A DNA stretch of 64,000 nucleotides from Octopus vulgaris. Taxonomy: Eukaryota. The stretch lies in NCBI GenBank assembly GCA_951406725.2, contig OX597835.1, forward strand, positions 29,574,001-29,638,000, read 5' to 3'. The first letter of the stretch is position 1. Every line of letters starts with the position of its first letter. Positions 7,109-48,400 of this stretch are shown piece by piece. A model generated the notes under the pieces. That model was not told the origin of the DNA. It searched no databases and saw only the letters and a program-made list of their open reading frames with translations. Both the position numbers and the translations under genes were made by a program.

Positions 7109-7414
7109 TCCCGAAAGGATGAAAGGCAAAGTCGACCTCGGTGGAATTTGAACTCAGAACGTAGCGGCAGACGAAATACCTATTTCTTTACTACCGTCAG
7201 GGGGCTAAACACAGAGGGGACAAACAAGAACAGACAAACGGATTAAGTCGATTACAACGACCCCAGTGCGTAACTGGTACTTAATTTATCGACCCCGAAA
7301 GGATGAAAGGCAAAGTCGACCTTGGCGGAATTTGAACTCAGAACGTAACGGCAGACGAAATACGGCTACGCATTTCGCTCGGCGTGCTAAAGTGTCTGCC
7401 AGTTCGCCGCCTTA

Positions 7415-7451
<37 letters not shown>

Positions 7452-7703
7452 TATTTAACAATTAAGGATAACCTCTTAATAAGGAATCTTAACAAGAAAT
7501 TATCAGGTAGATAGCGTGAAAAACCTCATAAGAGAAAAATTTCGAAAATAATTCTTTCTTATTGAACATATTAATTTATATATAGAGGGCATTATTATAC
7601 ATACATGCCTCACGCTAAGAGGGACATTAGTCATTTCTACCAAAAATTTTACTAATCATACCCAATGCAATTTTTCAAAGCAAGACATTTAAAAAATGAA
7701 TTT

Positions 7704-7769
7704 AGTCTTGTATCACCTGTGATTTCGTACTTACCGCAGAGATTTGCGACCGTACTCATCAGCAAGACT
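7704..7769 (-). ncRNA. Type I hammerhead ribozyme (copy 1)
   Basis: Reverse complement AGTCTTG-CTGATGA-GTAC...GTAC-GAAA-TCAC(AG)GTGA-TA^CAAGACT. Confidence 0.85.
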
Positions 7770-8347
7770 GATTCTGAACATATCATAAATAAACGACCTG
7801 TACCGCCAAAGCCGAACAGCCAACTGTTCCACTCCAACGAAGCACATGGGGAAGTTTACATATAATACATCCGGTAAATGGCTGGTTTCTTCGAATTGCA
7901 TTTCGGGTAGGAAAAGTTTTTTCGGAATAAAATTATTTAACAATTAAGGATAACCTCTTAATAAGTAATCTTAACAAGAAATTATCAGGTAGATAGCGTG
8001 AAAAACCTCATAAGAGAAAAATTTCGAAAATAATTCTTTCTTATTGAACATATTAATTTATATATATGTTCAATAAGAAAGAATTATTTTCGAAATTTTT
8101 CTCTTATGAGGTTTTTCACGCTATCTACCTGATAATTTCTTGTTAAGATTCCTTATTAAGAGGTTATCCTTAATTGTTAAATAATTTTATTCCGAAAAAA
8201 CTTTTCCTAACCGAAACGCAATTCGAAGAAGCCCGCCATTTACCGGATGTATTATATGTAAACTTCCCCATGTGCTTCGTTAGAGTGGAGCAGTTGGCTG
8301 TTCGGCTTTGGCGGTACAGGTCATTTATTTATGATATGTTCAGAATC

Positions 8348-8413
8348 AGTCTTGCTGATGAGTACGGTCGCAAATCTCTGCGGTACGTACGAAATCACAG
8401 GTGATACAAGACT
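8348..8413 (+). ncRNA. Type I hammerhead ribozyme (copy 2)
   Basis: Stem I AGTCTTG 8348-8354/CAAGACT 8407-8413; core CTGATGA 8355-8361; stem II GTACG/CGTAC plus TCGCA/TGCGG; GAAA 8391-8394; stem III TCAC/GTGA; cleavage predicted after A8406 (AUA). Confidence 0.9.
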
Positions 8414-8542
8414 AAATTCATTTTTTTAAATGTCTTGCTTTGAAAAATTGCATTGGGTATGATTAGTAAAATTTTTGGTAGAAATGACTAATGTCCCTCT
8501 TAGCGTGAGGCATGTATGTATAATAATGCCCTCTATATATAA

Positions 8543-8610
<68 letters not shown>

Positions 8611-8636
8611 GTAAAACTGCCGTGGCTTATAATCGC

Positions 8637-9030
8637 CAGTACGGTTGTGTGGTTAAAAAGCTTGTTTACCAACCATTTCATCTTCAGTTCAATCCCACTG
8701 TGTGAAACCTTTGGGTAAATATCTTGTACTAGAGCCTCTGGCCGGCCAAGGCCTTGAGATTGCAATCGGGAGAGGAGACTGAAACCATCTTGTGTGTCCG
8801 TGTGTGTGTGTGCGCTTGTGTGCGTGTGCGTGAGTGCGTGTGTCTGTACCTTTGTGTTATGTTTGTCTCCCGTTGCCTGTGTTATATTGCCCCCGTAACT
8901 TAGCAGCTCAGCAATGGAGACCGATGAATAAGTACCACTTTATAAAAAATAGTAAATAAAGGGAGCGGTTTCTATAACGGTACTCCAGCAGAACCGCAGT
9001 TCAGTGATTAATACACGTAAAGTATAAATG
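8637..9030 (+). mobile_element. SINE family B, diverged (others 695-780-, 4250-4432-, 6338-6377+, 21380-21565-, 44517-44825+, 45868-45965-, 56812-57310+)
   Basis: GGCTGTGTGGTAAG(T/A)AGCTTG...GGTTCAGTCCCACTGCGTGGCACCTTGGGCAA head with internal microsatellite. Confidence 0.8.
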
Positions 9031-16699: not shown

Positions 16700-20939
<4,240 letters not shown>

Positions 20940-47194: not shown

Positions 47195-48400
47195 AGTTTT
47201 GGGTGAGAAATAAAAGTCATTTTTCTGATATAATGTATGAACTTTAATCAATTATATATTTTCCCTTTTGTTCGACATCTTTCTGACATCTTCGTGATTC
47301 CGCTCTCACATAAATCCGGGTCCTTATCAGCCAAAAACTGAAGCAAGTGCGATTTCAGGTCATCATTATGATTAAAAGTTTTACCATTCAAAGAATTTTG
47401 CAAACTTCGAAATAAATGGTAATCTGATAGTGCGCGGTCAGGGCTATATGGTGGATGTGACATTACTTCCCAACTAAGCTCCAATAATTTTTCACGAGTT
47501 AGTAAAGACATTTGTAGTCTCGCGTTGTCATGGTGGAACACAATTCCTTTACGATCTGCCAATTCTGACCGGTTTCTTTTTATTGCTTCCTCCAGTTTCA
47601 TTAGTTGTTGGTAGTAAACATTTGAATTTATTGTTTGGTTCCTTGGAGGCAGCTCAAAATACACAACTCTTTTGTAATCCGACCTAATTGACAGCATGAC
47701 CTTTTCTTGATGCAATTCAGCTTTCGGTGTTGTTTCAGCTGGTTCATTACGTTTGGACCATGATCGTATTGTAGAGACAATCCATTTTTTTATCACCGGT
47801 GATGATTCGTTTAAAAGAATGGGTGATTTCATTGCGTTAGAGATGCATATCGCAAATATTGATTCGTTGTGTTAAGTGAATCACTTTCCAGTTATGCGGA
47901 ACCTAAACATCGACTTCCTTAACGAGTTCAATGCGTTTTTAGTGATTTTGAATTCTTGTATGTGATACATTTAACCTCTCTGCAATCTCTCGCACAGTTA
48001 TATAACAATCAGATTCAATTACGGATTTGATTCGGTCATCATCAACTTCAGTATGTCGACCAGAACGTTGGTCATCTTTGAGTGAAAACGGAATTTTTTT
48101 AACCATTTCTGACATATGTGTTCTGTTAAGCAATCAACACCATAAACTTGGCATATCTCTTTGTGAGCTTCAGCAGCTTCCTTGCTTTACAGAAATCAAA
48201 ATGCAAAATATGGTGAAAATGTTTGTTTTGCACTCCATGTTAAAGTTGACACTGAACTAACAGCTGTAAACAAAATTACGCGCAATTTGCTTCTAGAATG
48301 ACTTTAAATAACGGCTATCAAATGTCAAAAGTAAAAAATCGTACCATAGACAAAAGTCATTCAAACAAATCGTAACTCTATTTACGAAAAACGAAATGAT
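47195..48400 (-). mobile_element. Near full-length degenerate mariner element
   Basis: ORFs 47939-48133 (DDQRSGRH..ITVREIAERLNVSH) and 47248-47832 (KVMLS, FHHDNAR, HPPYSPDRALSDYHLFRSL). Confidence 0.9.

What the first reader, a model, noticed from the sequence alone, without database searches (positions are those of the whole stretch)
7448..8545. Retrozyme-like 482-nt hammerhead element in tandem plus inverted arrangement inside a TA microsatellite
Seen: a 482-nt unit with no recognisable coding capacity. It occurs as ~1.3 tandem units on the minus strand (137-bp terminal redundancy) fused head-to-head to one unit on the plus strand. Each full unit holds a complete type I hammerhead (CUGAUGA, GAAA, AUA cleavage triplet, 7-bp stem I extendable via GAAT/ATTC, stem III with a 2-nt loop and near-palindromic ATCACAGGTGAT). 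Known: type I hammerheads mark Penelope pLTRs and metazoan non-LTR retrozymes, which give monomeric circular RNAs; palindromic short stem III is typical of dimer-active hammerheads; partial tandem plus inverted copies are a Penelope integration signature. Inference: a non-autonomous self-cleaving, possibly circular-RNA element mobilised by a Penelope RT and targeted to (TA)n. I do not know of this family being described.
Basis: partly seen in the sequence, partly recalled or inferred. Interest (0 to 1): 0.9.

Follow-up and report, generated by a model that had tools for sequence, protein, structure and literature searches.

The report
Self-cutting RNA hitchhiker of Penelope transposons
This is one copy of a roughly 480-base non-coding repeat, scattered more than a thousand times into TA-repeat tracts and carrying a conserved hammerhead ribozyme fold; it is likely copied from a circular RNA by enzymes borrowed from Penelope-type retrotransposons, so it is a new family of a known kind (a retrozyme) that shows the Penelope insertion footprint unusually clearly.

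Summary
Observation confirmed. The 482-nt unit belongs to a dispersed non-coding superfamily (periods about 450-495 nt, 65-98% identical; 764 exact hammerhead-motif and 1,525 tail-motif hits, 0 in controls). Hammerhead stems I and II covary across subfamilies; no ORF is conserved. Insertions carry the Penelope (PLE) footprint: 186 of 200 3' ends abut (TA)n, and 62 of 69 inverted insertions end one arm at site A and the other about 130 nt further, at site B. Two young intact Neptune-like PLE families show the same targeting and two-end habit but no DNA similarity to the unit; no sampled copy runs into an ORF. Repeated parts within one insertion come mostly from one template, which fits reverse transcription round a circle but does not prove it. 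No long arrays were seen (maximum 2.16 periods in 133 insertions), and this copy has one hammerhead per strand, so it cannot itself release a monomer. Cleavage, circles and expression are untested. It works like a non-LTR retrozyme / non-autonomous PLE; I found no description of this family. The scan noted a similar, ribozyme-free element in another genome.

The parts
7418..7448 (.). Left (TA)n target tract
7448..7581 (-). About 130-nt 'tail' (unit positions 1-134) of the minus arm, ending at 3' end type B next to (TA)n
   Evidence: B ends recur in 23 direct and 65 inverted insertions
7582..8063 (-). One full 482-nt period, minus arm
   Evidence: folded as a circle z = -9.8 against 20 shuffles
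7704..7769 (-). Type I hammerhead of the minus arm (core starts 7762; predicted cleavage after A7711)
8051..8066 (.). AT-rich 5'-to-5' junction of the two arms, at the internal A site
8064..8545 (+). Plus arm: unit positions 11-482 plus the first letters of the next period, ending at 3' end type A (CCCTCTATATATAAAT) next to (TA)n
8348..8413 (+). Type I hammerhead of the plus arm: stem I 8348-8354/8407-8413, core 8355-8361, stem II 8362-8390, GAAA 8391-8394, near-palindromic stem III 8394-8405, predicted cleavage after A8406
8211..8460 (+). Conserved long-range helices that enclose the hammerhead (CCGAAATGCA-type strand paired with the TGCATT strand downstream of the ribozyme)
   Evidence: predicted; some compensatory changes
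8547..8607 (.). Right (TA)n target tract

Best explanation
The element is a non-coding, dispersed repeat with a conserved type I hammerhead fold and a Penelope-type insertion footprint in (TA)n, and it is likely a non-autonomous retroelement (retrozyme type) whose RNA would be cut to unit length by paired hammerheads, closed into a circle and reverse-transcribed into TA tracts by a borrowed Neptune-like RT/GIY-YIG protein. Steps: (1) shown: dispersed copies, no conserved ORF, TA targeting, two fixed 3' ends A and B, partial tandem and inverted arms. (2) Inferred from covariation: the sense RNA folds and the hammerhead is under selection. (3) Predicted: a single hammerhead misfolds, while two pair through the palindromic stem III into an active double hammerhead, so cutting would happen in the minority of loci with two same-strand ribozymes (or between two RNAs) and be damped in the finished monomer. 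(4) Inferred by analogy with retrozymes: a host ligase closes the monomer. (5) Inferred: the PLE endonuclease nicks (TA)n, RT primes at the AU-rich A or B site, runs through the sealed cleavage site and sometimes more than once round; a second arm made from the same template is resolved at the other site, giving the A/B inverted structure. The window copy is a product of step 5 and cannot release a monomer by itself.
For: Family size: 2,372 first-look candidates, 40 scored, copies on many contigs; 764 and 1,525 exact motif hits, controls 0. Covariation: in 53 distinct hammerheads the six inner stem I pairs form in 49-52 of 53 and stem II pairs 1-4 in 44-52 of 53, with swapped pair types; these stems were mostly not fixed by the pattern that found the divergent subfamilies. 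On 12 full periods 96.8% of cells pair and 18 of 74 pairs change on both sides, 0 of 500 shuffles reach this, slid controls give at most 6. Circular fold z <= -2.8 in 11 of 12 periods, and the antisense strand folds less well in all 12. Footprint: 186 of 200 3' ends within 30 nt of (TA)4+ against 391 of 4,619 control positions; 62 of 69 inverted insertions A/B, 0 A/A; this matches the PLE 'tail at one end only' (PMC8557442). Helpers: two PLE families with many intact 781-aa and 775-aa RT/GIY-YIG frames, a CX4CXXC-type linker, TA flanks and the same two alternative ends with 30-40-nt tails. No ORF linkage: of 232 body pieces, what lies 5' is another unit piece (170), TA (38) or unshared flank (24); the one apparent link (L115) is a later insertion, 0 of 24 other copies of that PLE continue into the unit. 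One template per insertion: differences at shared polymorphic sites are 0.21 (tandem, 22 pairs) and 0.28 (inverted, 38 pairs) per 100 nt within loci against 1.96 between loci; two other subfamily sets agree. Dimer: in 11 of 11 hammerheads the monomer minimum-energy fold is not the active one (active fold 1.5-8.4 kcal/mol higher) and the two-strand fold is 3.6-9.0 kcal/mol below two monomers; the 3 dimer folds printed are double hammerheads. A subfamily with at least 189 hits has a perfect palindrome in stem III.
Against: No cleavage, circle or strand-specific RNA was shown. No autonomous PLE with sequence similarity to the unit was found (blastn and nhmmer against about 90 PLE loci of a few families), so the helper is not identified; a resemblance of the tail ends was not significant (p < 0.05 in 1 of 12). 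Only 14 of 133 insertions have two same-strand hammerheads, so few loci could make monomers. Single-template identity is equally expected from RT jumping back on one linear RNA or from a homogeneous dimer locus; a few loci, the window copy among them (3 shared and 6 private differences in 460 nt), mix variants, and a cruder nearest-neighbour test was inconclusive. The structure counted was derived from the same alignment. One period (L107) folds no better than shuffles. The two central letters of stem III also occur as GG (11) and AA (22), which do not pair canonically in a dimer, and the commonest form AG gives tandem mismatches. Energy models ignore the tertiary contacts that stabilise hammerheads. 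Loci were chosen for near-full length or intact ribozymes, so length and truncation counts are biased.
Confidence: 0.68

Rival explanations
1. A non-autonomous PLE-dependent element copied from linear RNA: the hammerhead only trims transcripts (or cuts slowly), and partial tandems and inverted arms arise when the RT jumps back on the same RNA or on its own cDNA. No circle is needed.
For: All footprint and single-template results fit equally. Few loci have two same-strand ribozymes (14 of 133). PLE clades without canonical hammerheads make the same tandem/inverted structures (PMC8557442). Only 1 of 9 predicted frog retrozyme dimers cleaved in vitro (10.64898/2026.07.22.740005).
Against: A ribozyme kept intact by compensatory change across 65% divergence would sever the templates, yet 121 of 169 truncated pieces extend 5' across the cleavage site with no pile-up there (6 within 5 nt; biased by selection for intact ribozymes). 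Related invertebrate retrozymes do accumulate as circles (PMC7229834).
Confidence: 0.22
2. The copies are only terminal-repeat (pLTR) remnants of an autonomous Penelope element that I did not sample.
For: PLE 5' truncation leaves mostly 3' ends; the genome holds 30,323 first-look PLE protein candidates, of which I saw few families; hammerheads are normal in pLTRs (PMC4209133).
Against: In an autonomous PLE an ORF separates tail and 3' region (L079); here tail and body are contiguous in 90 of 232 pieces and in all 12 full periods across subfamilies. PLE protein matches lie in 10 of 132 unit loci and 2 of 11 further loci, never continuous with the unit body.
Confidence: 0.07
3. A DNA-level repeat (satellite monomer, Helitron-like or foldback element) with a chance hammerhead-like motif.
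For: Partial tandem and inverted pieces in AT-rich tracts can arise at DNA level.
Against: Variable 5' ends with fixed 3' ends, strand-specific RNA fold, covarying ribozyme stems around an invariant core, and the same end pattern as the genome's PLEs.
Confidence: 0.03

Closest known systems
Metazoan non-LTR retrozymes (Cervera and de la Pena 2020, PMC7229834; Li, Clavereau and Pollet 2026, 10.64898/2026.07.22.740005)
   Same: Non-coding, low-GC (31-35%) unit with one type I hammerhead per period, highly self-paired when folded as a circle, living beside autonomous PLEs with minimal hammerhead variants; unit length lies within the 51-972 bp range of Li et al.
   Different: Longer than the 170-400 nt RNAs tested in 2020; sampled copies are dispersed partial tandems and inversions (maximum 2.16 periods) rather than dimer-to-multimer arrays; strict (TA)n targeting with two fixed 3' ends is not mentioned in the passages I read; stem III is a 12-nt near-palindrome, longer than the 1-2 bp stem typical of animal hammerheads; no similarity to the pLTRs examined, whereas 21 of 57 frog families matched PLEs.
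EN+ Penelope-like elements, Neptune-type, and their pLTR hammerheads (Craig et al. 2021, PMC8557442; Cervera and de la Pena 2014, PMC4209133)
   Same: 5' truncation, partial tandems, inverted arm, tail at one end only, (TA)n preference, palindromic stem III proposed to work as a dimer; the 2014 paper already notes opposite-strand hammerhead pairs 100-700 bp apart and proposes circular templates.
   Different: No ORF; tail of about 117-137 nt instead of 30-40; canonical C3-G8 core and long stems, while this genome's young PLEs carry minimal variants (U3-A8 type in one, a C4 variant in the other).
Non-autonomous Chlamys PLEs such as MRC1 (PMC8557442, section 10)
   Same: Short non-coding PLE dependants forming pLTRs and head-to-tail insertions.
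   Different: Those generally resemble an autonomous family at the 3' end and their clade mostly lacks canonical hammerheads; this unit has a hammerhead and no detected autonomous relative.

Membership tests
Non-LTR retrozyme | Type I hammerhead in each unit | tested here: met
   Core, three stems and covariation; Rfam score below cut-off
Non-LTR retrozyme | No protein-coding capacity, no LTR/PBS/PPT, low GC | tested here: met
   No conserved ORF; GC 31-35%; PBS/PPT were not searched for separately
Non-LTR retrozyme | Tandem repeats with at least two consecutive hammerhead-bearing units | tested here: inconclusive
   Not met by the window copy; 14 of 133 sampled insertions have two same-strand hammerheads, 1 of 133 reaches two full periods, none a long array; whole genome not screened
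Non-LTR retrozyme | Self-cleavage of the RNA | not testable with these tools
   Folding predictions only
Non-LTR retrozyme | Accumulates as linear and circular unit-length RNA | tested here: inconclusive
   Only assembled contigs of runs guessed to be RNA were available
Non-autonomous Penelope-like element | 5'-truncated partial tandem and inverted insertions with a tail at one end | tested here: met
   62 of 69 inverted insertions A/B; scattered 5' ends
Non-autonomous Penelope-like element | Microsatellite (TA)n insertion bias shared with a resident autonomous PLE | tested here: met
   186 of 200 ends against 8.5% control; PLE ends
Non-autonomous Penelope-like element | 3'-end sequence similarity to an autonomous family | tested here: not met
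   None with the families sampled; most PLE families of the genome were not sampled
Autonomous PLE (pLTR remnant) | RT + GIY-YIG ORF between tail and 3' region | tested here: not met
   0 of 132 and 0 of 11 unit loci continuous with an ORF

The most novel reading that the evidence does not exclude
A long-lived lineage of retrozymes that is not derived from any resident pLTR and needs no genomic arrays: it persists as dimer-gated circular RNAs that recruit Neptune-type RT by structure alone, each insertion being a snapshot of reverse transcription round one circle with two priming/resolution sites. It would be direct genomic evidence that circles are the template behind Penelope's tandem and inverted insertions, and a 480-nt substrate for reconstituting that mechanism.
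Probability: 0.35. Interest if true: 0.72.

Novelty: new variant of a known kind. Interest (0 to 1): 0.5.

Why it matters
Retrozymes are thought to be moved by Penelope enzymes, but in the papers I read the support is co-occurrence and similarity to pLTRs. Here more than a thousand ORF-less copies carry the integration footprint itself (TA target, asymmetric A/B ends, inverted arm) next to young intact PLEs that leave the same footprint. How PLEs make tandem and inverted insertions is stated to be open (PMC8557442, discussion passage); a short, structured, multi-subfamily substrate makes it testable. The concept is not new, which caps the score.

Tried and rejected
Rfam: the miRNA-type hits are the palindromic junction, below cut-offs; rejected. 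Hidden small protein: a 56-aa frame exists in the minus arm but is not kept among copies; rejected. Autonomous parent: L063/L094, L091, L129, L218 are separate unit insertions near PLEs; L115 looked like a PLE ending in the unit but 0 of 24 sister copies do. Tail-motif resemblance to the 781-aa family: not significant. Viral contigs: 4 pattern hits without stem I or wider similarity, taken as chance. Expression: no RNA holder listed on record (20 of 24 rows hold part of the stretch, several organisms by code). Four runs guessed to be RNA were laid: contigs of family members cover 25-28 of 29 bins, summed word depth reaches about 3,900 in X1 with 7% of laid sequence running on into unlike sequence, no joints, no start/end pile-ups; contigs cannot show strand, ends, level or circularity, so this is inconclusive. 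Nearest-other-locus test of template identity was uninformative and replaced by the shared-polymorphism test. Rows dropped before counts: duplicate fetches of the same place (7 loci), two segmental duplicates of L164, L153 (other family), and clusters under 150 bp. No protein-database, structure or complex jobs were run. Earlier scan notes: none by sequence or in this genome.

Full report
Observation. The window holds, between two (TA)n tracts, a minus arm of one 482-nt period plus a 134-nt extension and a plus arm of one period, joined 5' to 5'. Rfam Hammerhead_1 scores it at 17 bits, under the cut-off of 34. With one ribozyme per strand this locus cannot release a monomer by double cleavage.

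Family. The window lies in a 2.8-Gb genome of 227 contigs; that it is an octopus-like animal is my unverified guess from size and repeat content. A DNA search gave 2,372 first-look candidates, of which 40 were scored. Exact patterns gave 52 hits for a 24-mer of this subfamily, 764 for core plus stem III, at least 189 for a perfect-palindrome variant, 83 and 24 for other central letters and 1,525 for a 22-nt tail motif; all reversed-pattern controls were 0. Twelve natural periods, chosen to span subfamilies, are 448-495 nt (one lacks its first 9 letters) and 65-98% identical. No ORF is conserved.

The RNA is under selection. Among 105 hammerheads (53 distinct), stem I and stem II pairs are kept with swapped letters while stem II length varies from 12 to about 30 nt. 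On the 12 periods, 18 of 74 pairs change on both sides, including 4 of 4 counted stem I and 3 of 4 stem II pairs, above all 500 shuffles and all slid controls; the structure came from the same alignment, so this leans in its favour. Folded as circles, 11 of 12 periods beat 20 shuffles each at z <= -2.8 (window -9.8; L107 -0.1), and the antisense strand folds less well in all 12. Conserved helices enclose the ribozyme and bridge the A junction.

Dimer gating (predicted). In 11 of 11 hammerheads the monomer minimum-energy fold is not the active one, the core usually pairing with stem III; two strands fold 3.6-9.0 kcal/mol lower than two monomers, and the three dimer folds printed are double hammerheads. 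The two central letters of stem III are AG (764), AT (189 or more, stricter pattern), TG (58), AA (22), GG (11), TA (5), others 11 (my count): mostly compatible with a self-paired duplex, not exclusively. Cervera and de la Pena 2014 describe this kind of control for animal hammerheads.

Insertion footprint. In 132 loci (133 insertions after dropping duplicates and short pieces) 186 of 200 3' ends lie within 30 nt of (TA)4+, against 391 of 4,619 control positions. 3' ends are of two kinds, A (end of the period) and B (117-137 nt further). Of 69 inverted insertions 62 are A/B, 6 have one irregular end, 1 is B/B, none A/A; 62 insertions are direct (38 A, 23 B, 1 other) and 2 complex. The longest run is 2.16 periods; 14 insertions have two same-strand hammerheads. 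The first 30 loci were best full-length matches and most others were chosen by an intact ribozyme, so lengths are biased upward; the first 100 places, a run through contig C1 and most of C2, show at most two same-strand ribozymes side by side. This is the structure Craig et al. 2021 describe for EN+ PLEs, with a tail at one end only.

Helper and parent. A GIY-YIG search (6,136 candidates, 150 scored) and a protein search (30,323 candidates, 76 scored) revealed two young families with many intact RT/GIY-YIG frames of 781 and 775 aa, an upstream ORF, a Cys linker of the Neptune/Nematis type (clade not tested by a tree), TA flanks and the same two alternative ends with short tails. Their hammerheads are minimal variants (1,391 hits for one). 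Neither they nor an older family resemble the unit in DNA. PLE fragments occur in 10 of 132 unit loci but never continue into the unit body; of 232 body pieces the 5' neighbour is unit (170), TA (38) or unshared flank (24). The unit is therefore ORF-less in everything sampled; an unsampled parent is not excluded.

Template. At sites polymorphic in the family, repeated parts within an insertion differ 5 to 25 times less than copies from different loci (0.21 and 0.28 against 1.96 per 100 nt in this subfamily; 0.07 and 0.28 against 1.86, and 0.56 and 0.00 against 2.69 in two others). So both tandem parts and both arms usually come from one template. 121 of 169 truncated pieces reach across the cleavage site, without a pile-up there. 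A selected ribozyme, templates continuous across its cut site, more-than-unit copies of one sequence and no long source arrays are most simply reconciled by a ligated circle, the model proposed for PLEs in 2014. RT jumping on a linear RNA explains the same data, and some loci, the window copy included, mix variants.

Expression could not be judged: only contigs of runs guessed to be RNA were available.

Literature seen. 10.64898/2026.07.22.740005: parts 1-3 of 5, abstract to discussion, supplements not seen; 35 species, no mollusc listed among them. PMC8557442: passages and section 10, supplements not read. PMC7229834: passages and section 14; 'octopus' and 'cephalopod' 0 times; supplements not read. 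PMC4209133: parts 1-2 of 4, supplements not read. PMC13282606: passages and a search of its one supplement; 'ribozyme' 0 times in both, 190 Penelope-like families tallied. Eight searches listed no description of this family; repeat libraries could not be searched and may hold it unnamed, and the unread supplements may list such hammerheads.

Verdict. A real, selected, ORF-less hammerhead retroelement family that works like a non-LTR retrozyme and a non-autonomous PLE. Membership of retrozymes in the strict sense (arrays, cleavage, circles) is unproven, and 3'-end similarity to an autonomous PLE was not found. New variant of a known kind; interest 0.5.

Noticed in passing
L153:3330-4030 (G000:C1:159160859-159161571) and L238-L261: A second, older family of about 420 nt (73-85% between copies, 242 candidates) with the same tandem/inverted TA-flanked architecture and, in the best-kept copies, the same stem III palindrome, but similar to the 482-nt unit only around the hammerhead.
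   Followed up: partly
L079:944-6160 (G000:C6:133342300-133350300): Young autonomous PLE of about 5.2 kb with identical 504-bp terminal repeats, a 479-aa ORF1 without Pfam match overlapping a 781-aa RT/GIY-YIG frame, and a minimal U3-A8-type hammerhead.
   Followed up: partly
L207-L236: Second very young PLE family: 76 scored copies near-identical at protein level (775-aa frame), also with an upstream ORF and a hammerhead-like motif whose core reads CCGAAGA.
   Followed up: partly
genome-wide hits: Further hammerhead subfamilies with stem III ATCACTGGTGAT and short AT-rich stem II that I did not fetch.
   Followed up: no
window 17268-20501 (-): LINE with endonuclease, RT and zf-RVT domains split over several frames or stops.
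   Followed up: partly
window 47248-47871 (-): Mariner-type transposase fragment, Pfam Transposase_1.
   Followed up: partly
window 7110-7416 and 8611-8790: Short repeats flank the two TA tracts (a 70-nt segment twice at 7110 and 7294; similar sequence recurs in other loci); they look like SINEs, by recall only.
   Followed up: no
window 7582-8545: The two 98%-identical arms would form a roughly 470-bp double-stranded hairpin in any read-through transcript, a possible substrate for editing or small-RNA silencing; about half of sampled insertions are inverted.
   Followed up: no
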